DNA of 64,000 nucleotides from an uncultured Muribaculaceae bacterium (GCA_964533935.1 CAZHOG010000003.1:40531-104530); one strand, 5' to 3'. Shown: positions 1 to 27,179, counted from the first letter of the stretch. Translations and numbers: made by a program. The notes: generated by a model from the letters alone, not told the origin.

Positions 1-988
1 CATTAGAATATTCTAAATCACTAGTATAATTATTAATTGTATTTCCAATTACCGAAACATTAGGTATTTGATTATTAATCTGCTTAGCAAATGATGTAAA
101 CGATAAATTCATTTCAAACATACCACCAGTAAGAGCAGTTAAATTATCTCGGTCATTTCCTTCTATCCAAATTCTTATTGTAACTTTTTTTATACCGTCA
201 TTTTTTTTATTATCTAAATATGTTAACATGGGATCTCCATTAGCACTTTGAATTTTATGTGAAGCACTAAGATTATCCCTTAAATTATCTATACTTGTTA
301 ATTCATATATTGCAGATTCACTGGCATCTATAAATCTATAATCTTGTTGTTCAACTGAATATAATGTTACAAAACATTTTCCAGTACTACAATCAATTTT
401 ATAATTTTTATTAGGTGCCCATACTAAACTTGCTTTATTGGATACTGCATAATAACCATTATTATATTCATTATCAATAAAAGCTAATCTAGTCGATGCC
501 GCAATTAAATCTCTACTAAAGTTACCTGATGATGATAATCTTTCTACTTCTGTGCCTAATAAATCATTTTCATCTGTACCAGTAGCTGGTAATACGTAGG
601 AAGAATCTTCTAAAAATACCCCAACATTACCAGATGATTTAAACCATACATCAAATTCTAAATAATCTTTATTTGCTGTAGCTCTTTTAAAAGTAACAGG
701 TGTTCCATCATCACGTTTACTTGTTGCTATATAAAAATTAACACCATCACCCGTTATTTCGTGGTCAAAGGAATAATCATTAGTAAAATCAAGAGATAAT
801 TCATTACTCCATTCTTCCCCATCTAATGAAATCAATAAATCACTATACGAATTCGTTCTTAAAACTAAATCATTTGCTTTTATTTCATTATTTTTATTTA
901 ACCATGCATATGCTGCAAGTGCAATTGATGCAATAATTACTAACAATCTAAAAGCAATTAATAATACATTTTTTCTCTCTTTAGTCAT
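1..988 (-). CDS. Secreted or membrane-anchored beta-rich protein with TasA/camelysin-like features, partial (C-terminus lies beyond window start)
   Basis: Absent from the ORF track because it runs off the window. I hand-translated the minus strand from the ATG at 988..986 and it stays open to position 2 (~329 codons): MTKERKNVLLIAFRLLVIIASIALAAYAWLNKNNEIKANDLVLRT...DVWFKSSGNVGVFLE...IRIWIEGNDRDNLTALTGGMFEMNLSF. The basic-hydrophobic N-terminus ending AAYAW resembles SipW-type signals. Its ATG overlaps the TAA of the upstream gene (TAATG). Confidence 0.6.
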   Translation of the reverse strand, partial: MTKERKNVLLIAFRLLVIIASIALAAYAWLNKNNEIKANDLVLRTNSYSDLLISLDGEEWSNELSLDFTNDYSFDHEITGDGVNFYIATSKRDDGTPVTFKRATANKDYLEFDVWFKSSGNVGVFLEDSSYVLPATGTDENDLLGTEVERLSSSGNFSRDLIAASTRLAFIDNEYNNGYYAVSNKASLVWAPNKNYKIDCSTGKCFVTLYSVEQQDYRFIDASESAIYELTSIDNLRDNLSASHKIQSANGDPMLTYLDNKKNDGIKKVTIRIWIEGNDRDNLTALTGGMFEMNLSFTSFAKQINNQIPNVSVIGNTINNYTSDLEYSN

Positions 989-2097
989 TAATTCACCAAA
1001 AATTCTAATGCTTTTTTATTTGAATTATTAAACTTATCTATTTCTTTATTAAATATTTTTGCTATTTTGTCTTCTCTTTTTTTCTTTTCAGAATAAATAT
1101 TTTTAAATTCACTATTTATTAAAGATTTAAAAGATTTTTCATTATATTTTTCATTATTTTCTATAAAATCTTTTATTATTCTTCTTATATAATATTTTTT
1201 AATATTTGATGAAGGTGAATTTTTACCATTAAGAATCAAATAATCCAATAAGAAAGCTTCATTCATATTATCTCTTGCAACAGATTCATCTTCATAATCT
1301 TTTGAATCACTTTCTTCTATTTTATCTTTAACATTATATTGTTCGATAAATTCCCATAATTCCAATGCTTTTTGAAAGTTTGGATTTTTTAAGATAACAT
1401 TTGTTTTTCTAATTGGAGATTTAACCATCATAGCATGTGCAGCCATTAAATCTTTTATAAAAGCACTTTTCATAAAGTCTGCAATAATAAATTGAATTCT
1501 TTCAACTCTTTCTGAAAGATCTAATCCTTTAGGATCTTTTCCAACTAAATCTTCAAAATATGAACTTTCAAAATTAATATCTATTTTAACTTTTTCTTTT
1601 CCTACTTTAGTAACACCAGAATAATTAATATTCTTATTTATTTTACAATTTGAACCTTCTTTGGTTAATTCTTTTCTTTTTGATATAAACATTTGTAGAT
1701 TCAATAATAATGAATATATAAATCTATTTTCGTACATATCAAAACTTTCTTCTTTATTTATATTCAAAACTTTAGAAGGAGTTATTGTTCCTTTTTTTTC
1801 ATCAAATTCCTGAATTAAATAAGTATGAGTAGCTAAATGTTTGATACTTTCTTCAGTAATCTTTTTAGCCTTTTCAACCGGAACAACTTCTTCTTCTTGC
1901 ATGATAAATCTTTTTGGATTTCTAATAATTGCATCAAGATACTCAACAGTTTCTTCAGTTTTATCCAACCAGCTATAATCAAATTCAACTTTTCGATAAT
2001 CTGTTTTAACTTTAAGTTTAGCTTTATTATTTTCTAAAAATTCTTGTTTAACAAATGAATCAACATTATCTAAATATTTTTCTAAATTATTATTCAT
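988..2097 (-). CDS. McrC-like / DUF2357-like partner protein with no recognisable PD-(D/E)xK nuclease domain
   Basis: 369-aa ORF 11 nt downstream of the McrB-like gene. It has the DMYENRFIYSLL motif I associate with the DUF2357 N-terminal region of McrC-family proteins. The C-terminal half is low-complexity and K/E-rich, with no obvious D...(D/E)xK motif. Confidence 0.45.
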   Translation of the reverse strand: MNNNLEKYLDNVDSFVKQEFLENNKAKLKVKTDYRKVEFDYSWLDKTEETVEYLDAIIRNPKRFIMQEEEVVPVEKAKKITEESIKHLATHTYLIQEFDEKKGTITPSKVLNINKEESFDMYENRFIYSLLLNLQMFISKRKELTKEGSNCKINKNINYSGVTKVGKEKVKIDINFESSYFEDLVGKDPKGLDLSERVERIQFIIADFMKSAFIKDLMAAHAMMVKSPIRKTNVILKNPNFQKALELWEFIEQYNVKDKIEESDSKDYEDESVARDNMNEAFLLDYLILNGKNSPSSNIKKYYIRRIIKDFIENNEKYNEKSFKSLINSEFKNIYSEKKKREDKIAKIFNKEIDKFNNSNKKALEFLVN

Positions 2098-2108
2098 ATA
2101 TCATCATC

Positions 2109-3647
2109 CTACATTAATTTTTTAAGTCTATTTAAATAAGCCTTACATTCATTCATATTTTCTTTGCCAAATAAACCATCTAAAAATTTTATAAATCCAT
2201 CAATTTCATCACGAATAAATGATAGGTTTAATTGTTCAAATTTACGTAATATTTTTTTAGCAATAACATAATCTAAACCATCAATTTCTTTTCCACCACA
2301 AGCAACATAAACAGGAATAAATTCATTAATATGTTTAACAATACGATTACCAAAAGCTAATCTAAAATGTTCAATAACATAGTTATCCATTTGTTCAAGT
2401 TTATCTAATAGTTCTTGTCCAACTTTATATTTTTCTTTAGCATCAGCAAAAAGACCTTCTAAATACTTGCTACTTATTTGATATCCTTCAGTTACTGGAG
2501 CGTCAAAGTATTCTCCTTTATCATTTATATCTATTGGCATAGCACGGTCATAAACCTTATCTGTAACCATGAATGTTGAATCATCGTTATTGATTGTACC
2601 AATGTACCACATATTATCAGGAATTTTTAGTTTTCCATCAGTTAATTTCTTCGGATCATCTGGCCATACATTAGGAACCAAATCAATAACCCATTCATCT
2701 CTTGATGGCATTTCTAGAATAGATAACATTTCGGCAAAATAATATTCAACACGAGCTATGTTCATTTCATCTAGAATAGTTAAATAAACAATATCTTTAT
2801 AACTAGCTTCATACATTTTCATTAATACTTCAGTTTCATTAAATTTCTTTGTAAATTCATTAAAGTATCCAAATAATTCCGTACGATCACGCCAAGAAGG
2901 TTGAACTGATGCAATAATTGCATCATTTTTCAAAAATTTACCCCATGCATATGGAAGAGATGTTTTACCAGTACCAGAAATACCTTGTAATATAACAAGT
3001 CTTGTTGATGCAAGTGAACTTACAAATAATCTAATAATATCAACTTTATAATATAACTTCATTTTAGAAGCAGCAAAATTTCTAAATGTTTCACAAAGTT
3101 CTTCTAAAGTAAAAGTATTATGTAAATCTTCAGGAACATAGTCTGCCATTGCTTTATCAACTTCACTTAATTTAAAGAATCTACCACTAAATTCTGTTTT
3201 AGCTTTTTTCTCTTCAGGATTAGCATCATCTCCAAGATCTTCAATTTCTGAAGACTCACCAGGTTTTAATCCTAATTGACTAACCTTCATTGCCATAATT
3301 TTATCTTTTTCAGTAGTTAATTTTAATACAGATCTATTTAAATCAGCTACTTCTTCTAATAAACTTTCTTGGTCAACTAAAGATTTTCTAACTCTAACTA
3401 ATTTTCTAATTAATAAAAATAATATAAAAATTATTAATGCTATTAATGCAACAAAAACTAGTACTACTAATGCAACTAGAATCCATCCAGCTCCATGAAT
3501 ATCGCCACTATATCCTTTAATTATATTTGCATAAGCCTTAAAATTAAAGATTTGCATAATACCTAATCCTATATTTTTTACAATCGTAATTAAGCCTCCA
3601 AAAAATTGAGACATAAAATCAAATAAAAATCTTACAAAGAAATCCAT
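2109..3647 (-). CDS. Membrane-anchored, coiled-coil McrB-family AAA+ (AAA_5) GTPase
   Basis: Walker A LQGISGTGKTS. Walker B plus the McrB-type segment LTILDEMNIARVEYYFAEMLSILE. NxxD signature in YIGTINNDDSTF. N-terminal ~80 aa are hydrophobic (WILVALVVLVFVALIALIIFILFLLI), followed by a heptad-like stretch (SLVDQESLLEEVADLNRSVLKLTTEKDKIMAMKVSQL). Confidence 0.7.
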   Translation of the reverse strand: MDFFVRFLFDFMSQFFGGLITIVKNIGLGIMQIFNFKAYANIIKGYSGDIHGAGWILVALVVLVFVALIALIIFILFLLIRKLVRVRKSLVDQESLLEEVADLNRSVLKLTTEKDKIMAMKVSQLGLKPGESSEIEDLGDDANPEEKKAKTEFSGRFFKLSEVDKAMADYVPEDLHNTFTLEELCETFRNFAASKMKLYYKVDIIRLFVSSLASTRLVILQGISGTGKTSLPYAWGKFLKNDAIIASVQPSWRDRTELFGYFNEFTKKFNETEVLMKMYEASYKDIVYLTILDEMNIARVEYYFAEMLSILEMPSRDEWVIDLVPNVWPDDPKKLTDGKLKIPDNMWYIGTINNDDSTFMVTDKVYDRAMPIDINDKGEYFDAPVTEGYQISSKYLEGLFADAKEKYKVGQELLDKLEQMDNYVIEHFRLAFGNRIVKHINEFIPVYVACGGKEIDGLDYVIAKKILRKFEQLNLSFIRDEIDGFIKFLDGLFGKENMNECKAYLNRLKKLM

Positions 3648-3682
3648 ACTTCCACCTATTTTCTACTATTCCACTATATCTA

Positions 3683-3711
3683 ATTATATCAGATAGATTA
3701 AGCATTTACAA
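3683..3711 (-). promoter_or_regulatory. Candidate sigma-A promoter of the McrB-like operon
   Basis: Minus strand reads TTGTAA, a 17-nt spacer ending in TG, then TATAAT (extended -10). It lies ~35 nt upstream of a GGTGGAAG RBS and the start at 3647. Confidence 0.45.
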
Positions 3712-3723
3712 TAAATGGTTTAT

Positions 3724-3753
3724 ATAAAAAAAGAAACATTAATTAATGTTTCT
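3724..3753 (-). terminator. Rho-independent terminator after gmk
   Basis: Minus strand AGAAACATTAATTAATGTTTCT hairpin followed by a T run. The hairpin overlaps the gmk stop codon. Confidence 0.6.
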
Positions 3754-4432
3754 AATCTATATGAAAATCCTCATTAACTATATCTTTATCAATCAATAAT
3801 TCATGAATTTCTTCTTCCTCATTTTCTAAGTAAACATCTTCAATACGATTTACACTACATTTTTCTGCAAGTAAAATTGCATTTATTTTCTTCGCTGCTA
3901 ATTCTACTTCATCATTAACAACAACATAATTATACTTAGTTACTTCATTTATCTCTTGGTAAGCCCTCTTAAATCTTTTTAATAATTGATCTTGAGTCTC
4001 AGTTTTTCTATTTTCAAGTCTAGTTTTTAAATCTTTAAAAGTTGGAGGCACAATAAATATAAACAAAGCATCTTCATATAATCTTTTAACTTTTAAAGCA
4101 CCTTGTATTTCAATAATTAATAAAACATCTATTCCTGAATTTAATTTTTCTTCTATTTTACTTTTTGGAGTACCGTAATAATTATCTGCATAACAAGCAA
4201 ATTCTAAAAAATCTTTATTATTTATTTTTTCTTCAAACTCTTTTTTTGATAAAAAGAAATAATTGACACCATCAACTTCTCCATTTCTAGGTTCTCTTGA
4301 TGTTGCAGAAACAGATATCCACACATTTTTATTCATTTTTTGTAATTCATTGCATACAGTATCTTTTCCAGCTCCACTAGGTCCAGAAATAACAGTTAAT
4401 ATTCCTCTTGATTTATGACTTATTATATTCAT
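3752..4432 (-). CDS. gmk: Guanylate kinase with ~30-aa acidic C-terminal extension
   Basis: P-loop GPSGAGKDT, SATSREPRNGEVDGVNYFF (canonical S-x-T-x-R-x-P-R-x-G-E motif region), NYYGTP. Confidence 0.9.
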   Translation of the reverse strand: MNIISHKSRGILTVISGPSGAGKDTVCNELQKMNKNVWISVSATSREPRNGEVDGVNYFFLSKKEFEEKINNKDFLEFACYADNYYGTPKSKIEEKLNSGIDVLLIIEIQGALKVKRLYEDALFIFIVPPTFKDLKTRLENRKTETQDQLLKRFKRAYQEINEVTKYNYVVVNDEVELAAKKINAILLAEKCSVNRIEDVYLENEEEEIHELLIDKDIVNEDFHID

Positions 4433-4502
4433 TTTTTGCCTCCATTAATTTAATGTATTATAGCACAATTATATTTATATATGTAAATTTATATATTTAA
4501 AC

Positions 4503-4531
4503 TTGATATTATAAATCAAGTTTGTTAAAAT
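4503..4531 (+). promoter_or_regulatory. Candidate promoter of sRNA copy 1
   Basis: TTGATA (4503-4508), 17-nt spacer, TAAAAT (4526-4531). Confidence 0.45.
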
Positions 4532-4537
4532 CAAATT

Positions 4538-4618
4538 GTGAGAAGCAAAAAGTCTTCGGACTAGATGCTTAACACTATGTTAGGTCATCTTTATTCATAA
4601 GAATAAAGATGTTTTTTT
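4538..4618 (+). ncRNA. Candidate antitoxin-type small RNA, copy 1
   Basis: Starts ~7 nt after the -10 box. Contains AGTC-TTCG-GACT (UUCG-type tetraloop hairpin), AGATG...CATCT enclosing TAACA-CTA-TGTTA, then an 11-bp terminator stem CATCTTTATTC/GAATAAAGATG (4586-4611) and T7 (4612-4618). It is convergent with the small ORF, ending 5 nt before the ORF stop codon. Exact 5' end not determined. Confidence 0.5.
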
Positions 4619-4623
4619 ATACT

Positions 4624-4704
4624 TTAGATTAATTTAAAAACTAATACTAAAAGTATAAAAATTATAATAAGTAATAAAAGTACTAAAAAATCTTTTTTAC
4701 CCAT
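4624..4704 (-). CDS. 26-aa hydrophobic peptide, candidate type I toxin, copy 1
   Basis: Hand-translated as MGKKDFLVLLLLIIIFILLVLVFKLI. AAGGAG RBS lies 8 nt upstream. Basic N-terminus followed by a single TM-length hydrophobic helix. Below the ORF-track size cutoff. Confidence 0.5.
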   Translation of the reverse strand: MGKKDFLVLLLLIIIFILLVLVFKLI

Positions 4705-4803
4705 ATAAATCACTCCTTAGAATTATTTAATAATCCCCCTGAATAATTCGTCCGACATTTTTAGAGTGATAAACATCTTTTCTTCTTGTTTCTCGAGAAA
4801 TGT

Positions 4804-4847
4804 ATTATACATATTTCTTTTTTTCTTAACAAGTGATTCGACAAAAC
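4804..4847 (-). promoter_or_regulatory. Candidate promoter of toxin mRNA copy 1, with upstream Spo0A-box-like element
   Basis: Minus strand: GTTTTGTCGAATC (4847..4835, contains TGTCGAA), then TTGTTA (-35, 4832..4827), a 17-nt spacer ending in TG, then TATAAT (4809..4804). Confidence 0.45.
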
Positions 4848-4891
4848 ATTACAAAATAAATCCTAAAATATTATTAAAATATAAATTAATG

Positions 4892-4920
4892 TTGAAAAGC
4901 AATAATTATTTTGTTAAAAT
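4892..4920 (+). promoter_or_regulatory. Candidate promoter of sRNA copy 2
   Basis: TTGAAA (4892-4897), 17-nt spacer, TAAAAT (4915-4920). Confidence 0.45.
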
Positions 4921-4926
4921 TAATTT

Positions 4927-5006
4927 GTGAGAAGCAAAAAGTCTCCGGACTAGATGCTTACCACTAGTGGTGGCATCTTTATTCAACAGAATAAAGATGT
5001 TTTTTT
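4927..5006 (+). ncRNA. Candidate antitoxin-type small RNA, copy 2
   Basis: Same architecture as copy 1: AGTC-TCCG-GACT, AGATG...CATCT enclosing the palindrome CCACTAGTGG, terminator stem 4974-4999 and T7 at 5000-5006. Confidence 0.5.
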
Positions 5007-5011
5007 ATGCT

Positions 5012-5092
5012 TTAGATTAATTTAAAAACTAATACTAAAAGTATAAAAATTATAATAAGTAAAATTGTGATTAAAAAATCTTTTTTACCCAT
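5012..5092 (-). CDS. 26-aa hydrophobic peptide, candidate type I toxin, copy 2
   Basis: Hand-translated as MGKKDFLITILLIIIFILLVLVFKLI, with the same RBS context as copy 1. Confidence 0.5.
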   Translation of the reverse strand: MGKKDFLITILLIIIFILLVLVFKLI

Positions 5093-5191
5093 ATAAATCA
5101 CTCCTTAGAATTATTAAATAATCCCCCTGAATAATTCGTCCGATATTTTTAGAGTGATAAACATCTTTTTTTCTTGCTTCTCGAGAAATGT

Positions 5192-5234
5192 ATTATACAT
5201 ACCTCTTTTTTTCTTGCAAGCGATTCGACAAAAC
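5192..5234 (-). promoter_or_regulatory. Candidate promoter of toxin mRNA copy 2, with upstream Spo0A-box-like element
   Basis: Minus strand: GTTTTGTCGAATC (5234..5222), TTGCAA (5219..5214), a 16-nt spacer ending in TG, then TATAAT (5197..5192). Confidence 0.4.
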
Positions 5235-5244
5235 ATTACAAAAT

Positions 5245-5272
5245 AAGTTCATGAAATTTATTTTAATGAACT
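5245..5272 (-). terminator. Hairpin at the 3' end of the RT gene (possible terminator)
   Basis: AAGTTCAT / ATGAACTT 8-bp stem spanning the RT stop codon, followed on the minus strand by ATTTTGT. Confidence 0.35.
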
Positions 5273-6406
5273 TATCTTTTTTAGCAAGCTTCCACAACTT
5301 CCCCATTTAAAATGTCCGTAATATCCAGACATTTCATTTATGTATTCCTTTTTATTTATATTATTTAACCTCAAACAATTGTCTAAATACTTTAATTTCC
5401 TATTAAATCTTTTCTTACAGTCATTTTTCACTTTCATAATAGCCTTATTATTAATAATAAAATATTTATATCCTAAAAAATCAAGACCATTATTTATATT
5501 AGAAATAATGGTCTTTTTATTATTTAATTTCAACTTATATTTGCTAAGAATTTCATTTATATCTTTTAAGCACTCTTTAAGATATTCTTTATTGTCATGA
5601 ATAAGTATTCCATCATCCATATATCTTACATAATATTTAATTTGTAATACTTCTTTTATATAATAATCTAATTCATTTAAATATAATATTGCTATTATCT
5701 GACTGGTCATGTTGCCAATTGGAAATCCATGACCAGTGGCATATAATGTAACATCTTTAATCTCATCTATCTTCTTAGTTTTTTCAGTATCACTTATATT
5801 CAAATTTTTAATTCTTTTTTCTTCCTGTAATTTTAACTTATTTATAGATTCATTAACATATTTACAATCAGTGGAATCAACGATTTTATTTACTAATTCT
5901 AAATCATCATTATCTTTAATCTTCTTAGCAAATAAATCTTTAACTATTTCATGACTTATACTATAAAAATACTTACTAATATCAAATTTTAAATAATATA
6001 TATCTTTATTATTCTTTTTCATCTCATTTAAATATTTCTTTATAGCTATAAGCCCTTGGTGGGTACCTTTATTTTTTCTAGTAGCTATATTCATATCAAT
6101 AAATGTTTTATCAAATACATCAACTAAAAAATAATTAGCCACCAAGTGATTAATTATCTTATCATTAATATTTTGACTCATAATAAGTCTTAACTTAGGT
6201 TCATGAATAAAAAAAATATTATACTTACCTACTTCATAATTTTTATGTTCTAAAACATTCCTAATCAAAAAAATATTTTCAGAATAATATTCTTCAAATA
6301 ATTCAACTTTTCTTTTATTTTTTGTTTTAGAACAGATTAAGTTGCTATATTTTATAATATTATCTAATTCACATATTTTTGGATATAAATTATTCACTCT
6401 TTTCAT
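5258..6406 (-). CDS. DGR-type reverse transcriptase
   Basis: EPKLRLI (motif 1/2 region), YYLKFDISKYF (motif 3), GFPIGNMTSQ (I/LGNxxSQ signature of DGR RTs, where group II and retron RTs have QGxxxSP), RYMDDGIL (YxDD), LDFLGYKY (motif 7). No maturase or endonuclease extension. Confidence 0.9.
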   Translation of the reverse strand: MKRVNNLYPKICELDNIIKYSNLICSKTKNKRKVELFEEYYSENIFLIRNVLEHKNYEVGKYNIFFIHEPKLRLIMSQNINDKIINHLVANYFLVDVFDKTFIDMNIATRKNKGTHQGLIAIKKYLNEMKKNNKDIYYLKFDISKYFYSISHEIVKDLFAKKIKDNDDLELVNKIVDSTDCKYVNESINKLKLQEEKRIKNLNISDTEKTKKIDEIKDVTLYATGHGFPIGNMTSQIIAILYLNELDYYIKEVLQIKYYVRYMDDGILIHDNKEYLKECLKDINEILSKYKLKLNNKKTIISNINNGLDFLGYKYFIINNKAIMKVKNDCKKRFNRKLKYLDNCLRLNNINKKEYINEMSGYYGHFKWGSCGSLLKKISSLK

Positions 6407-6725
6407 AACTCATCCACCCAAATATCATTTTATGAAGTTCTGTCAAATACTTCGAATAATTAACATATTTTTTCTTTGTTAATATTTCCTTATCATAACT
6501 TTGTTTCAAATAAAAATTAACCATTTTTATTTGAACTATAATTTCCTTTTTATAATTCTTATCCTGTGTTAAATTGGCACGATATATATTTTCTAATATA
6601 TCATACAATGCATTTAATATTCTATTTTTTAATACTATATATTCATTAGGAAAATTATAAATATTTTTTTCTATATAGTTCAAAGTTTTTTTAGCACTTC
6701 GTACAATCATTAAATTATCTTCCAT
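6390..6725 (-). CDS. avd: Avd-like accessory variability determinant (small helical-bundle protein)
   Basis: Small basic helical ORF between TR and RT that overlaps the RT start by 17 nt. The ORF track starts it at 6773, but the ATG at 6725 is preceded by GGAGGA and gives ~111 aa (MEDNLMIVRSAKKTLNYIEKNIYNFPNEY...). Confidence 0.7.
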   Translation of the reverse strand: MEDNLMIVRSAKKTLNYIEKNIYNFPNEYIVLKNRILNALYDILENIYRANLTQDKNYKKEIIVQIKMVNFYLKQSYDKEILTKKKYVNYSKYLTELHKMIFGWMSYEKSE

Positions 6726-6896
6726 ATCTTCCTCCACAAAAAAATAGTAGCTATAGAAATAATTCCGGTTCACTTTGTGTTACTAAAGCCTTATTTCTTC
6801 TACTATATATTTTTTACACTTTCGTGTATGGGATATAACTTGTTTTTTTGTCTTACAATTATATACCAAGTATATAAAACATAGTTATCATGAAAT

Positions 6897-7000
6897 CTGG
6901 GCGAACTCCAAAGTTATTAGTATTGTTGTAATTATTGTTGAAGTTGCCATTGCTATTAACATTCCAAACATTATTAGTATTATTTAAAGAGCCGGACCAA
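6897..7000 (-). repeat. DGR template repeat (TR), 104 nt
   Basis: The non-coding copy of the VR. On the coding strand it reads TGG TCC GGC TCT TTA AAT AAT ACT AAT AAT GTT TGG AAT GTT AAT AGC AAT GGC AAC TTC AAC AAT AAT TAC AAC AAT ACT AAT AAC TTT GGA GTT CGC CCA G. 15 of 34 codons are AAY, the hallmark of DGR templates. Confidence 0.85.
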
Positions 7001-7124
7001 ACCAAAAAGAGAATCGAAAAGGCCACTATCACCTACTAGTTATATCCCGTGTCATGCCTACACGCAAGCGTTCGGCATAGATCCAGGCAGCAATGAATTG
7101 TCACCTAGTCGCAATCAAAGATTG

Positions 7125-8258
7125 CTAGATTTCAGATGATGAGATGCTGATAACTGGGCGAACTCCGAAGTAAGAAGTATTGTAGTAAGTGTGGCGGTAG
7201 AAGGAGCCAGAGCTATGAACATCCCACACAGTACTAGTAGTATTCAAAGAGCCGGACCAATAAGAAGTAGAATAAATAAATGCTGGAGCTGATGTACAGA
7301 AATTGTTACCTGATGAACATCCTAGCGTTTCCAATTCTTCTTTTGTTATAAGACTTGCACTATTTATTGTTGCTCCTAGTTCTTCTAATTTTGTTTTATA
7401 TGTATTTACATATCCTTCTACTATACTTCCTGCATATTCTGAAGAAGTGGATGAAAAAGCTGTAGTACCATTATATATATATATATCTTGTCCTGATACG
7501 TATCCTACCATTGTACTATCTTGCATATCTGTAGCTTCATCTCCATAGGGGGTATAAGTACTCGTTGAGTTATCAAATGTCCCACCAACATATAAATTAT
7601 ATTGAGCTAACGCTTTAATATTTGTGTCATCATTAGATATTACATAAAAGCTTTCAGTTCCTGTAGTTATCAAATCACCTATGTCAGCTTTATTATTGCC
7701 ATTTTCATCTGTTGTTAATGTCCATATGCTTGCAACTGGTGTTTCAACTTTTAATGTATCTACTCCTAGAGTTGCACTGAAAGTCTTACCTTGATATGCA
7801 TTTTGATTTTCTTCTTTATATTTGTAACTTACTGTTAATGTATATTCTTTTGTTACTCCTGATGCTATTGATACATTTGTCATAACATAGTCTTTTCCAG
7901 TATTTGTTTCTGGTAAAACAGTTTCACTTACCACACTACCAGTTTCATCAGATAATGTGTATACTAAATCTTCATTGAATTCATTTGTAATATTTTGTAA
8001 ATAAATATTATAATCTACTGCTATAGTACTGGTATTTTCTACAGTAAATGTTTTTGTAAATGAATCTCCTGGAACTATTCCAGTTACATTTATTTCTTGG
8101 CCTCCTGTATATACTAGTGTTAACTCATTAGTTTTAATCACTGTTTCTGTTTTATTATTTTCTTTTACTCTTGCACTATAGTATGCATATGATGCACCAG
8201 CTACAAGAGCTACCACTGCAATAATACTTACTACAATTATTGCTATTTTCTTTTTCAT
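7125..8258 (-). CDS. DGR target protein: SipW-type signal, TasA/camelysin-like domain, DUF1566/C-type-lectin-like variable C-terminus
   Basis: N-terminus MKKKIAIIVVSIIAVVALVAGASYAYYSA (compare TasA/CalY ...GGGTFAYFSD). PGDSFTKTFTVEN and QNAYQGKTFSATLGV match TasA-family landmarks. C-terminus has SLITKEELETLGC...STSYWSGS...YFGVRPVI (DUF1566-like pattern), and the VR covers WSGS...GVRP. Confidence 0.85.
   Translation of the reverse strand: MKKKIAIIVVSIIAVVALVAGASYAYYSARVKENNKTETVIKTNELTLVYTGGQEINVTGIVPGDSFTKTFTVENTSTIAVDYNIYLQNITNEFNEDLVYTLSDETGSVVSETVLPETNTGKDYVMTNVSIASGVTKEYTLTVSYKYKEENQNAYQGKTFSATLGVDTLKVETPVASIWTLTTDENGNNKADIGDLITTGTESFYVISNDDTNIKALAQYNLYVGGTFDNSTSTYTPYGDEATDMQDSTMVGYVSGQDIYIYNGTTAFSSTSSEYAGSIVEGYVNTYKTKLEELGATINSASLITKEELETLGCSSGNNFCTSAPAFIYSTSYWSGSLNTTSTVWDVHSSGSFYRHTYYNTSYFGVRPVISISSSEI
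7154..7260 (-). repeat. DGR variable repeat (VR), 107 nt, last ~35 codons of the target gene
   Basis: Identical to the TR at both ends (TTGGTCCGGCTCTTT... and ...GGAGTTCGCCCAG). Internal differences fall almost entirely at TR adenines. Confidence 0.85.
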
Positions 8259-8369
8259 TTTTTCTCCTACTTTCTATATTACATAATAAGTGTAACTCAG
8301 TTTAATAATAAACTTCAATATAAATGATTTAATATGTTTGTTTTTGACAAGTAATTAACATTAATAAAG

Positions 8370-8396
8370 CAAAAAAAATTGTACAAATGTACAATT
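8370..8396 (-). terminator. Rho-independent terminator after pyk
   Basis: AATTGTACA-AA-TGTACAATT hairpin followed by a T run on the minus strand. Confidence 0.6.
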
Positions 8397-9806
8397 TTAA
8401 ATTTCTTCTATTTTCATTAAGTTAGTTGTTTTTGTAACCCCTGTATTTGGGAATCCTCCAGTAATAACAACTATATCTCCTGTTTCTAAATTCATAAACT
8501 CTTTTGCTTTATTAATAGATGATTCTATTACTTCATCAGTAGTATTTAATACTGGAACATTTGTAGTATATACACCCCAATTTAATGCAAGACCTCTTTG
8601 AGTTTTTTCATCAGGACAAGCGGCTAAAATCAAACAATTAGGTTTTAAGTTACTTATTTTCCTAGCTGTAAATCCACTAACTGTAGCAGCTACTATTAAT
8701 TTAGCTCCTAACATATTTGCACTTTCAACAACACTATTTGCTATTGTTTGGGTAATACCTATTCTACTTTTATAATCAAATGATTGAATTAATTCTCCAT
8801 GATTTTCTGTGAATTCACAAACATCAGCCATGAATTTAACTGTTTCAACTGGAAATTTACCAACTGTTGATTCTCCAGATAACATAACTGCATCTGTTCC
8901 ATCTAATACAGCATTAGCTACATCACTAATTTCTGCTCTAGTAGGTCTAGAATTTTTCTTCATTGATTCTAACATTTCAGTAGCAACAATACATATTTTT
9001 CCTTGTTCACGAGCTTTTTTTATTAATTTTTTTTGAATAATTGGTAATTCTTCTAATTTAGCTTCAACACCAAGATCTCCACGAGCTACCATTATACCTT
9101 CAGATTCTTCTAATATACTTTCAACATTTTCAACACCTAAAGTACTTTCAATTTTACATATTAATTTTAAATCTTCACGATTTTGTTCTTTTAATATTTT
9201 TTTAACTTCTAAAACTTCTTCACGAGTGGAAACAAATGATAAAGCTAAGAAATCTCCTTCATGTTGACATGCATAAATAATATCTTCGCGATCAACATCA
9301 CTAATAAATGGTATATCTAATTTAACTCCTGGAACACTTAAACTTTTTTTGTTTCCTAGAACTCCACCATTAATAATCTTGCAAGTAACGCCATCTTCCT
9401 CAACACTTATTACATCCATTCTCATTAATCCGTTTTCAAGTAATATTATATTACCTACTTCTAATGAATCAATTGCTTGTTTATAGTTAACTGAAAATCT
9501 TTTTTCATTACCAAGAACTTCTTCTTTAACAATTCTAATAGTTTTTCCTTCAGCTAAATTAATTTCATCATTTTCTAACATACCATTTCTAAATTCTGGC
9601 CCTTTTGTATCATATAATATAGCTATATTTTGTTTAGTTATTTCTCTAACTTTTTTAACTGATTCAACTACATCTTCTCTTTCTTGAATAGTTGCATGGG
9701 AAAAATTAATTCTTGCAACATTCATTCCACTTTCAACCATTTTACTCATTGTATCAACACCTACACTTGCAGGTCCAATACTACATATTATTTTTGTTTT
9801 CTTCAT
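8397..9806 (-). CDS. pyk: Pyruvate kinase
   Basis: MKKTKIICSIGPAS, ARINFSH, MVARGDLGVE, full-length 469 aa. Confidence 0.95.
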   Translation of the reverse strand: MKKTKIICSIGPASVGVDTMSKMVESGMNVARINFSHATIQEREDVVESVKKVREITKQNIAILYDTKGPEFRNGMLENDEINLAEGKTIRIVKEEVLGNEKRFSVNYKQAIDSLEVGNIILLENGLMRMDVISVEEDGVTCKIINGGVLGNKKSLSVPGVKLDIPFISDVDREDIIYACQHEGDFLALSFVSTREEVLEVKKILKEQNREDLKLICKIESTLGVENVESILEESEGIMVARGDLGVEAKLEELPIIQKKLIKKAREQGKICIVATEMLESMKKNSRPTRAEISDVANAVLDGTDAVMLSGESTVGKFPVETVKFMADVCEFTENHGELIQSFDYKSRIGITQTIANSVVESANMLGAKLIVAATVSGFTARKISNLKPNCLILAACPDEKTQRGLALNWGVYTTNVPVLNTTDEVIESSINKAKEFMNLETGDIVVITGGFPNTGVTKTTNLMKIEEI

Positions 9807-26024: not shown

Positions 26025-27179
26025 AAATTAATTCAGTAGCTGATATTGTAATAACAGGACGAACTCCAAAGTTATCAGTACGAATGTAATTTTTGATATT
26101 AAATGATCCTGAACTACCAACAGACCATATAACATTAGGATTATCAGTTGTAGATATTGTCCAATAAGAAGTTGTAAATACAAATGCTAATGCTGAAGAA
26201 CAACTATAAGATTCTTCAAAACATCCCAATGATTCTAATTCTTCTTTTGTTATAAGGCTTGCACTATCTATTGTTGCACCGAATTCTTCTAATTTTGTTT
26301 TATATGTGTTTACATATTCTTCAACTATGCTTCCTGAATAATCACTGTAATTTGTTCCTTTTTGTTCATCTGATGAAAATGCCGTAGTTCCTTTTCTTAA
26401 ACTTTGGCCAGATATATATCCTAACATTGAACTATCTTGTATTCCTGTTGCTTCTTCTCCATATTCTGTCCAATTAGTTCCATCATATGATCCACCAACA
26501 TATAAATTATATTGTGCTAATGCTTTTATATTCGTATCATCATTAGATATTACATAAAAGCTTTCTGTTTTATATGTTATTAAATCACCTACATCTGCAT
26601 GGCCATTGCCATTTTCATCATTTGTTAATGTCCATGTAATTGGTTCTTCTATCTTTACTGTATCACTCCTAGTGTTGCACTAAAAGATGCCCCTTGATAT
26701 GCATTTTGATCATCATCAGAATATTTATAAGTTATTTTTAATGTATATTCTTTTGTAATACTAGCTGCTATATTTATTGAAGCCATTAAATATTCTTTTC
26801 CAGTATTACTAACTGGTAACACTGTTTCCTCAATCACATTACCAGTTTCATCAGATAATGTATACACTAAATCTTCATTAAACTCATTTGTAATATTTTC
26901 TAAATAAATATTATAATCTACTGCTATATTACTTGTATTTTCTACTGTAAATGTTTTTGTAAATGAATCTCCTGGAATTATATCAGATACATTTATTTCT
27001 TGCCCTCCTGTATAAATTAAAGATAACTCATTAGTTTTAATAACTGTTTGAGTATTATTTATCATTCTTACATTTGCACTAAAGTATGCATAAGTAATTC
27101 CTATAACAGAAAACACTAATAATAACATACCAACTATTATTAAGCTTGTTTTTCTTTTCATGATTATTCCTACTTTCAA
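26023..27179 (-). pseudogene. Frameshifted paralogue of the DGR target (TasA-like plus DUF1566-like)
   Basis: ORFs 26655..27179 and 26023..26427 match the N- and C-termini of the 7125..8258 product. I traced the downstream frame open from 26679 to 26023. Comparison with the intact gene shows a 1-nt deletion (GTATC-ACTCC versus GTATCTACTCC) near 26660-26670. Confidence 0.75.

What the first reader, a model, noticed from the sequence alone, without database searches (positions are those of the whole stretch)
1..3711. Membrane-anchored coiled-coil McrB-family GTPase with a nuclease-less McrC-like partner and a coupled secreted protein
The 512-aa protein has clear McrB/AAA_5 hallmarks (GISGTGKTS, ILDEMNIARVEYYF, NxxD in TINNDDS). 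Instead of a DNA-binding N-domain, it starts with hydrophobic TM segments followed by a coiled coil. The partner carries the ENRF motif of the DUF2357 region, which in McrC inserts into the McrB ring, but I see no PD-(D/E)xK nuclease. The third gene encodes a signal-bearing beta-rich protein. A McrBC-like motor with no nuclease, tethered to the membrane and coupled to an exported protein, does not match a classic type IV restriction system. It may be an uncharacterised defence or envelope/fibre-assembly module.
Basis: partly seen in the sequence, partly recalled or inferred. Interest (0 to 1): 0.7.

Follow-up and report, generated by a model that had tools for sequence, protein, structure and literature searches.

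The report
Membrane McrBC-like GTPase in fibre operon
A restriction-enzyme-type GTPase motor that has lost its DNA-binding and DNA-cutting parts sits in the cell membrane inside a conserved gut-bacterial operon for secreted surface-fibre proteins; this system type was named (CoCoPALM) in 2024 but has never been studied experimentally.

Summary
On the minus strand, 2109..3647 encodes a 512-aa McrB-family GTPase with an N-terminal transmembrane helix. 988..2097 encodes a 369-aa DUF2357 (McrC N-domain) partner with no detectable nuclease. 1..988 is the 5' part of a 372-aa secreted beta-rich protein whose start overlaps the partner's stop codon.

Related contigs show this trio is the core of a conserved operon of about 10 genes in uncultured low-GC gut Bacilli and some Oscillospiraceae-named MAGs. 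The full operon has a cytoplasmic protein of about 370 aa, two SipW-type signal peptidases and four to six paralogous exported proteins. Most of these carry a '(Y/F)AW(F/L)' motif after the signal helix. Some also carry CBM26, CBM_2/LRR or DUF285 binding modules.

The partner is adjacent in 47/47 loci, and a SipW-like peptidase is present in 28/28 loci with full flanks.

[quoted passage not shown] (eLife 2024). I found no follow-up.

Best reading: a GTP-driven, membrane-tethered McrBC-derived machine that assembles or regulates a SipW-dependent adhesive surface fibre, not a restriction system. The mechanism is inferred.

In this window the upstream half of the operon is replaced by gmk plus a DGR whose target is a TasA/camelysin-family protein.

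The parts
2109..3647 (-). 512-aa membrane-anchored McrB-family GTPase (McrB homologue of a CoCoPALM system)
   Evidence: ORF. E. coli McrB is the only PDB family hit, E=1.5e-4 single sequence and 1.4e-6 profile. NCBIfam McrB 1.7e-4. PADLOC PDC-M26A 8.7e-35, GTPase domain only. More than 8000 homologues, about 70% identical across related MAGs.
3402..3494 (-). Transmembrane helix (residues ~52-82), followed by the basic stretch RKLVRVRK, which places the GTPase in the cytoplasm
   Evidence: Hydropathy 2.2-3.7 over 19-residue windows. Conserved in all orthologues. The topology is an inference from the positive-inside rule.
3267..3386 (-). Conserved helical or coiled-coil-like segment (residues ~88-127), followed by a variable acidic linker
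   Evidence: Conserved 'LVEQExLLEEVAxLNxxVxKLTxEKxKIxAMKVSQLGL'. Bell et al. call this TM plus coiled-coil region FtsB-like. My own hhalign against FtsB and DivIC was negative.
2112..3182 (-). GTPase (AAA+) domain. Walker A is at 2958..2984, Walker B (D293, E294) at 2766..2771, N353-N-D-D356 at 2580..2591, and R368 is invariant.
   Evidence: Invariant columns in a 24-sequence alignment. Ungapped alignment to E. coli McrB NTAD and RRR.
988..2097 (-). 369-aa McrC-like partner. The DUF2357 N-domain is at 1648..2025 and YENRF at 1720..1734. The helical C-terminal part (991..1530) has no nuclease fold.
   Evidence: Pfam DUF2357 7.9e-13. AF2 pLDDT 80.8: residues 190-369 are almost all helical, with a long helix at 320-368. 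No invariant D...(D/E)xK. No nuclease in Foldseek or the PDB profile search. Adjacent to the GTPase in 47/47 loci.
1..988 (-). 5' part (329 of 372 codons) of an exported beta-rich 'T-family' protein. The signal helix with A-Y27-A-W29-L is at ~905..988. The start codon overlaps the partner's stop codon (TAATG).
   Evidence: P0241 is the full length. AF2 pLDDT 88: helix 3-32, disordered 32-39, beta-sandwich plus a DUF4073-like C-domain. Orthologue directly downstream of the partner in related loci.
3683..3711 (-). Promoter-like site (TTGTAA-17-TATAAT with TG) in the 104-nt gap between gmk and the GTPase gene
   Evidence: It is a consensus match only; the number of such sites in the region is not above the shuffled expectation.
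7125..8258 (-). Probable associated component: a 377-aa TasA/camelysin-family exported protein ('ASYAYYS' after the signal helix) whose C-terminus is the variable region of the adjacent DGR
   Evidence: Pfam Peptidase_M73 2e-10, residues 1-161. TR/VR pair with 20 of 31 mismatches at TR adenines. Peptidase_M73-domain proteins sit between SipW and the GTPase gene in L009 and L048. The functional link to the operon is an inference.

Best explanation
This is the core of a CoCoPALM system, a McrBC-derived GTPase machine recruited from restriction to cell-surface fibre biogenesis.

Shown:
- A McrB-family GTPase carries an intact nucleotide site and is held at the membrane by an N-terminal TM helix.
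- Its obligatory neighbour keeps the McrC N-domain (DUF2357) but has a helical C-terminus instead of a nuclease.
- Both genes are embedded in a conserved operon, with tight or overlapping gene junctions. The operon has two SipW-type signal peptidases, a cytoplasmic protein of about 370 aa, and four to six paralogous exported beta-sandwich proteins. Most of these carry a '(Y/F)AW(F/L)' motif just after the signal helix. Some carry carbohydrate- or ligand-binding modules.

Inferred:
- As in McrBC, six GTPase subunits form a ring under the membrane. The partner inserts its conserved loops or hairpin into the ring and triggers GTP hydrolysis.
- The resulting movement is passed through the TM/coiled-coil stalk, and through the long coiled coil of the partner in Oscillospiraceae versions, to membrane-anchored fibre subunits.
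- SipW then cuts these subunits near the YA|W motif, and they polymerise into an adhesive surface fibre, possibly by donor-strand exchange as in TasA and BsaA.
- The motor would therefore drive or gate assembly, or passage through the wall. In this role it would be analogous to the PilB/PilC motor of type IV pili.

In this window's organism only the downstream half lies next to the GTPase gene: GTPase, partner, T, T, small exported protein, SipW and a giant LRR/CBM adhesin. Upstream are gmk and a DGR that diversifies a TasA-family protein.
For: Identity of the parts:
- GTPase. TM helix.
- Partner: DUF2357. AF2 model with a helical C-terminal half and no beta-sheet core of a PD-(D/E)xK fold. 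No invariant acidic/Lys triad. No nuclease hit.

Operon:
- The source contigs L055-L057 continue with T 372 aa, T 356 aa, a 186-aa exported protein, an S26 peptidase of 205 aa, and an LRR_5/CBM_2 protein of more than 2300 aa.
- The full 10-gene order is seen in L017, L059 and about 25 other loci.
- The SipW assignment rests on TIGR02228 at 87 and 94 bits against a cut-off of 51.85.
- The partner is adjacent in 47/47 loci. Of 28 loci with full flanks, 28 have a SipW-like peptidase and 27 have a T-family protein.
- The T paralogues are mutually homologous (hhalign 95-100%).
- The motif [YFV]AW[FLM..] occurs in 96/174 T and 13/25 small exported proteins, and in none of the cytoplasmic proteins. 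The giant adhesin starts with a TM helix plus 'SFAWL'.

Adhesin modules: 3x CBM26, CBM_2/LRR_5, DUF285, and a DGR-varied C-terminus on a Peptidase_M73 protein.

Not a mobile defence island:
- GTPase identity is 55-88% across many species.
- Flanks are conserved housekeeping genes: an ABC transporter in L017 and the dcw genes in L059.
- GC content shows no anomaly.

Literature: Bell et al. 2024 define CoCoPALM by exactly this architecture.
Against: - No experiment exists for any member, so fibre formation and the role of the GTPase are inferred.
- The T family shows no detectable sequence homology to TasA (hhalign probability below 1%). The fold match is weak (TasA fibre 8aur probability 0.35; best hit Epf adhesin E=5.8e-4, TM-scores about 0.1-0.3).
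- TasA-type fibres in Bacillus need no NTPase, so a motor is not obviously required.
- The partner model has pTM 0.49 and did not retrieve solved McrC structures. Ring insertion is therefore by analogy only.
- FtsB similarity of the N-terminus was not reproduced.
- In this window the upstream half of the operon, including the cytoplasmic ~370-aa protein and one SipW, is absent from all 64 kb. The system here may be reduced or split.
- A defence-database profile (PDC-M26A) does hit the GTPase domain.
Confidence: 0.6

Rival explanations
1. It is an anti-phage defence system. On this view a membrane-tethered McrBC/CoCoNuT-like sensor acts through an unknown non-nuclease effector and merely neighbours, or guards, a fibre operon, for example by sensing phages that use the fibre as a receptor.
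For: The GTPase belongs to a family otherwise known from type IV restriction. It hits the PADLOC candidate PDC-M26A at 8.7e-35. Bell et al. place CoCoPALM beside the predicted-defence CoCoNuTs. A DGR lies next to it in this window.
Against: No nuclease or other effector domain was found in the partner. The partner and the third protein have no significant PADLOC hit; the only one is Cas11a at E=0.039 on the third protein. The PADLOC hit covers only part of the GTPase domain. The genes are unusually conserved for a defence system. Gene order is fixed, with overlapping stop and start codons into the exported-protein gene. Flanks are housekeeping genes rather than defence islands. There are no phage-family hits.
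Confidence: 0.12
2. The pair is not an assembly motor. Instead it is a GTP-dependent regulator or quality-control device for secretion. It might extract or hold uncleaved signal-anchored subunits, gate SipW cleavage, or help folded subunits cross the peptidoglycan. C. perfringens BsaA and BsaC depend on type IV pilus proteins in a comparable way.
For: It rests on the same context evidence as the main explanation. There is a precedent: secretion of SipW/TasA-family matrix proteins can depend on a separate NTPase-driven pilus apparatus (PMC11580942). These organisms have peptidoglycan synthesis genes (PBP in L059). Prepilin-type proteins occur in or beside the operon in L011, L024 and L059.
Against: Nothing distinguishes it from the motor model with present data. 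There is no known example of McrB-type rings acting on proteins.
Confidence: 0.18
3. It has a cell-division or envelope-organisation role. On this view an FtsB-like TM/coiled-coil GTPase works with the divisome and is linked only secondarily to the exported proteins.
For: Bell et al. report FtsB homology of the N-terminal region. In L059 the operon lies next to mraZ, rsmH, an ftsL-sized gene and a PBP.
Against: The adjacency to dcw genes is not conserved: L017 has ABC transporter flanks, and this window has gmk. FtsB/DivIC similarity was not detected here. The strictly conserved neighbours are SipW and the T proteins.
Confidence: 0.05

Closest known systems
[quoted passage not shown]
   Same: A McrB-type GTPase whose N-terminus is a TM helix plus a helical or coiled-coil segment. 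An adjacent McrC homologue with DUF2357. Association with signal-peptidase-family genes. Coiled coils on the McrC homologue: long in the Oscillospiraceae orthologues, one ~50-residue helix here. A signature 'N-x-D followed by D'.
   Different: The published description is one paragraph with no gene-by-gene anatomy. Here the full operon is laid out: two SipW, a cytoplasmic ~370-aa protein, and four to six T-family exported proteins with a (Y/F)AW(F/L) motif and adhesin modules. This window's copy lacks the upstream half and instead has gmk plus a DGR with a TasA-family target. FtsB homology was not reproduced.
Classical McrBC type IV restriction enzyme (E. coli McrB/McrC; PDB 6hz4, 6ut6, 7vsr)
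   Same: The GTPase-domain fold family, with Walker A and B, N..D signature and Arg. A partner with the McrC N-domain. By analogy, probably a hexamer plus an inserted activator.
   Different: No DNA-binding N-domain on the GTPase; it has a membrane anchor instead. No PD-(D/E)xK nuclease in the partner. Not in a defence island. Strongly conserved and syntenic, and coupled to exported proteins.
CoCoNuT systems (CnuB/CnuC with HEPN or other nucleases; same paper)
   Same: According to the paper, the same branch of McrB GTPases. Coiled-coil fusions. The McrC homologue often lacks an active PD-(D/E)xK.
   Different: CoCoNuTs always have an associated HEPN or other nuclease and RNA-binding domains, and no membrane anchor. 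Here there is none of these, and there is a SipW and exported-protein context.
TapA-SipW-TasA (B. subtilis) and SipW-BsaA-BsaB-BsaC (C. perfringens) matrix-fibre operons
   Same: A dedicated SipW-type signal peptidase encoded with its exported substrates. The motif after the signal helix resembles TasA 'TWAAF'. A true Peptidase_M73/TasA-family protein lies 3.5 kb upstream in the window, and inside the operon in L009 and L048. A disordered stretch after the predicted cleavage site could serve as a donor strand.
   Different: Those operons contain no NTPase. The main exported family here (T) is not detectably homologous to TasA. There are two peptidases and many paralogues.
Type IV pilus / type II secretion assembly motors (PilB/PilC)
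   Same: Functional analogy only: a cytoplasmic hexameric NTPase coupled through the membrane to N-terminally membrane-anchored subunits that a dedicated peptidase processes.
   Different: Unrelated ATPase family. A different peptidase (SipW type, not prepilin peptidase). A different subunit fold.

Membership tests
CoCoPALM (Bell et al. 2024) | McrB-type GTPase domain | tested here: met
   E. coli McrB is the only PDB family hit (E=1.5e-4 and 1.4e-6). NCBIfam McrB 1.7e-4. Walker A, Walker B, N..D and Arg are invariant.
CoCoPALM (Bell et al. 2024) | Signature motif shortened to NxD (usually followed by E or D) | tested here: inconclusive
   The invariant N353-N-D-D356 fits 'NxD+D'. It also aligns without a gap to E. 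coli N-T-A-D as NxxD. Placement in the NxD branch would need a phylogeny that includes CnuB sequences, which I did not have.
CoCoPALM (Bell et al. 2024) | GTPase fused to an FtsB-like transmembrane plus coiled-coil region | tested here: inconclusive
   The TM helix at 52-82 is clear, and a conserved helical-looking segment at 88-127 follows. Homology to FtsB/DivIC was not detected by Pfam at E<=1 or by hhalign against single sequences recalled from memory. The coiled coil was not modelled.
CoCoPALM (Bell et al. 2024) | Adjacent McrC homologue (DUF2357) | tested here: met
   Pfam DUF2357 at 48.7 bits against a cut-off of 23.3. Adjacent in 47/47 loci.
CoCoPALM (Bell et al. 2024) | Association with signal-peptidase-family genes | tested here: met
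   This lies outside the window but on its source contig: L055 4356..4973, Peptidase_S26 at 22.0 bits (cut-off 22.9). Orthologues in L017 reach TIGR02228 at 87 and 94 bits against a cut-off of 51.85. Present in 28/28 loci with full flanks.
CoCoPALM (Bell et al. 2024) | Coiled coil also on the McrC homologue ('usually') | tested here: inconclusive
   The window's partner has only one long C-terminal helix, 320-368. Oscillospiraceae-named orthologues have about 500 residues of coiled coil.
Classical McrBC type IV restriction system | N-terminal DNA-binding domain on McrB | tested here: not met
   Residues 1-155 are a TM helix, a helical segment and an acidic linker. No domain hit in Pfam or NCBIfam.
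Classical McrBC type IV restriction system | PD-(D/E)xK nuclease domain in McrC | tested here: not met
   Residues 190-369 are predicted almost entirely helical, with one strand. No invariant D...(D/E)xK. No nuclease hit by Foldseek, PDB profile or Pfam. Caveat: model pTM is 0.49.
CoCoNuT | Tandem HEPN or other nuclease encoded with the McrBC homologues | tested here: not met
   The neighbouring genes are exported T proteins and SipW. No nuclease family was found in any operon protein.
TasA/camelysin (Peptidase_M73) SipW-dependent fibre proteins | Sequence membership of the third gene's product in PF12389 | tested here: not met
   No Pfam hit at E<=1. hhalign against B. subtilis TasA gives probability below 1% (the TasA sequence was verified against 8aur). 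The Foldseek hit to the TasA fibre is weak. By contrast the DGR target at 7125..8258 and the ORF at 26655..27179 are TasA-family or TasA-like.
TasA/camelysin (Peptidase_M73) SipW-dependent fibre proteins | Cleavage by SipW and polymerisation into fibres | not testable with these tools
   There is only indirect support: a dedicated SipW is encoded in the operon, a conserved (Y/F)AW(F/L) motif follows the signal helix, and a disordered segment 32-39 follows it.
PADLOC candidate system PDC-M26 | Match of all system components | tested here: not met
   Only the GTPase hits PDC-M26A, over profile positions 312-433 of 724. The partner has no hit, and the third protein has only a weak hit to an unrelated model (Cas11a, E=0.039).

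The most novel reading that the evidence does not exclude
The McrBC-derived GTPase ring and its nuclease-free McrC-like shaft form the motor of a previously uncharacterised pilus-biogenesis pathway in Gram-positive gut bacteria. The motor would assemble SipW-processed 'T-pilin' subunits into an adhesive fibre. The fibre's tips carry interchangeable binding modules: CBM26, CBM_2/LRR, DUF285, and in this genome a DGR-diversified TasA-family lectin. That would be a clear case of a restriction-enzyme motor turned into a protein-fibre machine.
Probability: 0.35. Interest if true: 0.85.

Novelty: new member of a known kind. Interest (0 to 1): 0.55.

Why it matters
McrBC is the textbook GTP-dependent restriction enzyme. 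A widespread, strongly conserved derivative that has lost both DNA binding and the nuclease, and is wired into a surface-fibre operon, would show that this motor can be reused for envelope biology.

The carriers are abundant, mostly uncultured gut bacteria. The associated proteins carry starch-, cellulose- and ligand-binding modules, so the system is a candidate for how these organisms attach to dietary particles or hosts.

The class has a name but no data. The operon anatomy, the shared (Y/F)AW(F/L) signal motif, the conserved cytoplasmic ~370-aa protein and the link to TasA-family and DGR-varied proteins give concrete handles for experiments.

Tried and rejected
- An exact look-up of the window's GTPase found no contig. 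The partner (P0121) did, which gave the downstream genes.
- PHROGs gave nothing useful.
- The partner has no significant match to the PDB, either as a single sequence or as a profile.
- Foldseek of the partner model returned only meaningless low-TM hits such as TolC and CapZ, and did not recover solved McrC chains. I use this only as 'no nuclease seen'.
- Foldseek and the profile search of the third protein gave weak adhesin, Ig and TasA-fibre hits. I do not claim TasA homology for it.
- hhalign of the four T subfamilies against TasA was negative.
- hhalign of the GTPase N-terminus against E. coli FtsB and B. subtilis DivIC was negative. Both sequences were recalled from memory and not verified.
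- A 511-aa protein upstream in L001 looked like a second GTPase copy. It is unrelated: 19% identity and no Walker A.
- P0017 (646 aa) appears to contain an internal duplication, probably an assembly artefact.
- A search of the window for the upstream half of the operon (cytoplasmic protein, T, T, SipW) by tblastn and HMMs found nothing.
- Rfam found no family in 1..9000.
- Literature searches for a CoCoPALM follow-up, McrB+SipW, McrB+TasA and PDC-M26 found no characterisation. The supplements held for the eLife paper contain no CoCoPALM entries.

Full report
**1. What is in the sequence**

All genes in 1..9800 are on the minus strand. GC is uniformly about 22-29% across 1..6500 and rises only over the DGR target gene.

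- 2109..3647 encodes 512 aa.
- After an 11-nt spacer, 988..2097 encodes 369 aa.
- The third gene starts at 988..986. Its ATG shares one base with the partner's TAA (TAATG). It runs off the window start after 329 codons. Its full length is 372 aa (P0241).
- Upstream of the 512-aa gene lies a 104-nt gap with one promoter-like site, then guanylate kinase at 3752..4432.

**2. The 512-aa protein**

- Pfam finds nothing at E<=1.
- E. coli McrB is the only family recovered from the PDB: E=1.5e-4 with the single sequence and 1.4e-6 with a 24-sequence profile, aligned over residues 199-405.
- NCBIfam gives McrB at 1.7e-4.
- Across orthologues at 55-83% identity, several sites are invariant: G222-ISGTGKTS-230, D293-E294, N353-N-D-D356 and R368. 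The nucleotide site therefore looks intact.
The same four residues also fit 'NxD followed by a second D', the variant Bell et al. describe for this branch. I could not decide between the two readings.
- Hydropathy shows one unambiguous TM helix at about residues 52-82, followed by RKLVRVRK. Residues 1-36 form a conserved but only moderately hydrophobic segment.
- Residues 88-127 are a conserved helical-looking stretch. Then come a variable acidic linker and the GTPase domain.
- By the positive-inside rule the GTPase domain is cytoplasmic. This is an inference.

**3. The 369-aa partner**

- Pfam DUF2357, the McrC N-terminal domain, matches at 48.7 bits against a cut-off of 23.3, over residues 25-150. 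The match includes the invariant Y122-E-N-R-F126.
- The AF2 model (40-sequence alignment, pLDDT 80.8, pTM 0.49) has an alpha/beta N-part with a long hairpin at 150-183.
- Two invariant segments are disordered in isolation: 63-69 (FIMQEEE) and 114-118. This is what one would expect of loops that fold on a partner.
- Residues 190-369 are almost entirely helical and end in one helix of about 50 residues. There is no mixed sheet that could be a PD-(D/E)xK core.
- No conserved D...(D/E)xK triad is present.
- Foldseek, a PDB profile search, Pfam, NCBIfam and PADLOC all return no nuclease.
- 'Nuclease-less' is supported, with the caveat that the model's domain arrangement is uncertain.

**4. The third protein**

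- The AF2 model (52 sequences, pLDDT 88, pTM 0.83) shows helix 3-32, a disordered stretch at 32-39, a beta-sandwich body and a small C-terminal beta domain. In orthologues the C-terminal domain matches DUF4073.
- The helix ends in A-Y27-A-W29-L, and Y27, A28 and W29 are conserved.
- Structure matches are weak: Epf adhesin E=5.8e-4, and TasA fibre 8aur at probability 0.35.
- Profile comparison with B. subtilis TasA is negative. The TasA sequence was checked against 8aur first.
It is not demonstrably a TasA homologue.

**5. Context is decisive**

- The GTPase has more than 8000 database relatives. Most listed ones are about 70% identical over the full length.
- In a library clustered at 50% identity, 760 clusters match at E<=1e-30 and 8313 at E<=1e-3.
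- A scan of species-representative genomes gave 51 loci. Their record titles include 'Bacilli/Mollicutes/Tenericutes/Mycoplasmatota bacterium', 'Clostridium sp. CAG:524' and 'CAG:1000'. To my knowledge these names correspond to the uncultured gut order RF39; this was not tested here. At about 55% identity the titles are 'Ruminococcus sp./Oscillospiraceae' MAGs.
- I called ORFs in all loci and clustered them. The recurrent order, for example in L017 6325..16066 and L059, is:
  - a cytoplasmic protein of about 370 aa
  - T (~230 aa, signal-anchor type)
  - T (~370 aa)
  - signal peptidase
  - GTPase
  - DUF2357 partner
  - T (~385 aa, the window's third gene)
  - T (~350 aa)
  - a small exported protein (~190 aa)
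  - a second signal peptidase
  - often a giant T-headed adhesin
- The two peptidases are archaeal/SipW-type signal peptidase I: TIGR02228 at 87 and 94 bits against a cut-off of 51.85, and SipW of Bacillus at 6e-29.
- The partner is adjacent in 47/47 loci. Of 28 loci with full flanks, 28 have a SipW-like gene and 27 have a T-family gene.
- The T paralogues are homologous to each other (hhalign 95-100%).
- The motif [YFV]AW[FLM..] follows the signal helix in 96/174 T proteins and 13/25 small exported proteins. It occurs in none of the cytoplasmic proteins. It resembles the TasA 'TWA|AF' SipW site (my knowledge).
- The cytoplasmic ~370-aa protein has remote homologues in the variant operons (hhalign 96-99%).
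- Flanks are ordinary chromosomal genes: an ABC transporter in L017, and mraZ, rsmH and a PBP in L059. They are shared between species.
- This is not how defence islands behave.

**6. The window's own operon**

- Source contigs found through the partner (L055-L057) continue past the window start. They carry T 372 aa, T 356 aa ('VSYAWF'), a 186-aa exported protein ('TVAWM'), an S26 peptidase of 205 aa, and an LRR_5/CBM_2 protein of more than 2300 aa.
- The N-terminus of that giant protein is a TM helix plus 'SFAWL'. It is a T-family-headed adhesin.
- The upstream half of the operon is absent from the whole 64-kb window, although an 81%-identical relative has it (L059).
- In its place are gmk and a diversity-generating retroelement. 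Its parts are an RT at 5258..6406, bAvd at 6390..6773, a template repeat at ~6897..7000 and a variable repeat at ~7154..7260. Of 31 mismatches, 20 are at template adenines.
- The DGR target (7125..8258) is an exported Peptidase_M73 (camelysin/TasA) family protein: 2e-10 over residues 1-161, with 'ASYAYYS' after the signal helix.
- Peptidase_M73-domain proteins also sit between SipW and the GTPase gene in L009 and L048.
- True TasA-family proteins are thus recurrently tied to this operon.

**7. What is known**

[quoted passage not shown] In it the GTPase is fused to an FtsB-like transmembrane/coiled-coil domain. [quoted passage not shown] They name these CoCoPALM and defer analysis to a future paper.

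I found no follow-up and no details in the held supplements. The window's locus fits that definition. The membership table lists which criteria I could test.

**8. How it most likely works**

Shown:
- The components listed above.
- Their strict linkage.
- The intact GTPase site.
- The loss of both the nuclease and the DNA-binding domain.
- The SipW assignment.
- The shared signal motif.
- Adhesin modules on T proteins: CBM26 x3 in L035, CBM_2/LRR_5 and DUF285.

Inferred by analogy with McrBC structures (6hz4, 6ut6, 7vsr):
- Six GTPase subunits form a ring, and one partner is inserted and stimulates hydrolysis.

Inferred from topology and context:
- The ring hangs under the membrane on six TM/helical stalks.
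- It couples GTP hydrolysis to handling of membrane-anchored T subunits, which SipW releases and which polymerise into an adhesive fibre.

Two further points bear on this:
- The ~230-aa T paralogue has a cytoplasmic N-tail and no cleavage motif. It is a candidate anchor linking motor and fibre.
- In C. perfringens, secretion of the SipW-dependent proteins BsaA and BsaC depends on an NTPase-driven type IV pilus apparatus, and BsaA polymerises by donor-strand exchange while membrane-anchored (PMC11580942). This shows such coupling is plausible.

I put 0.6 on this overall reading. Identity as CoCoPALM rates higher, and the specific motor mechanism rates lower.

**9. Rivals**

- Defence (0.12). 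Supported only by family ancestry and a partial PADLOC hit. Contradicted by the lack of an effector, the strong conservation and the synteny.
- A regulatory, quality-control or wall-passage role rather than assembly (0.18). It cannot be separated from the main model with present data.
- A divisome role (0.05). It rests on reported FtsB similarity, which I could not reproduce, and on a dcw adjacency that is not conserved.

**10. Verdict**

- The locus is a new member of a named but unstudied class. It has a locus-specific twist: the upstream half is replaced by gmk plus a DGR that targets a TasA-family protein.
- Interest is moderate to high. The biology is surprising, but the basic idea is already in print and no mechanism can be shown computationally.

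Noticed in passing
window 5258..8258 (minus strand): A complete diversity-generating retroelement. Its parts are an RT at 5258..6406 (RVT_1), bAvd at 6390..6773, a template repeat at ~6897..7000 and a variable repeat at ~7154..7260 in the C-terminus of the target 7125..8258. Of 31 TR/VR mismatches, 20 are at template adenines, and there is one 3-nt indel. The target's N-domain is camelysin/TasA family (Peptidase_M73, 2e-10).
   Followed up: partly
window 4521..5267: A tandem duplication of a unit of about 388 nt (4521..4880 and 4910..5267, 93% identical) lies in the non-coding gap between gmk and the DGR RT. Each copy has a terminator-like hairpin on the plus strand. There is no Rfam match, and its function is unknown.
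   Followed up: partly
window 26655..27179 (minus strand): A stand-alone 174-aa exported protein ('ITYAYFS' after the signal helix) next to rpoC. Its sequence is nearly the same as the N-domain of the DGR target. It is therefore a probable TasA-family subunit and a possible partner of the diversified protein.
   Followed up: no
L055 5014..11578 (source contig, downstream of the window start); also L001, L058, L059: A giant protein (over 2300 aa) with LRR_5 and CBM_2 domains follows the operon. Its N-terminus is a TM helix plus 'SFAWL', the same signal motif as the T family. It looks like a T-headed adhesin belonging to the system.
   Followed up: partly
L032-L037, L046, L050, L051, L054 (Oscillospiraceae/'Ruminococcus sp.' MAGs): In these orthologous operons the DUF2357 partner is 790-950 aa, with about 500 residues of SMC-like coiled coil. 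The downstream T proteins are 700-1190 aa. One of them (L035 15229..18357) carries three CBM26 starch-binding modules.
   Followed up: partly
L038-L040 and L006 1..3900: A second operon type has a cytoplasmic ~377-aa protein, the GTPase, the partner, and a 420-560-aa protein. That last protein has a cytoplasmic N-part, a TM helix, Asp-rich repeats and a C-terminal domain resembling the N-domain of the window's DGR target. No SipW is in view. L006 carries both operon types.
   Followed up: no
L011 4130..5896, L024 8644..9891, L059 4150..5334: Proteins with a prepilin-type N-terminal methylation motif (type IV pilin-like) lie inside or just upstream of the operon in some species. In L059 one is followed by a sigma-70-like gene.
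   Followed up: no
P0017 (646 aa homologue of the GTPase): It contains an internal repeat of about 130 residues of the GTPase C-terminal region. This is probably an assembly or gene-call artefact rather than a real variant.
   Followed up: no
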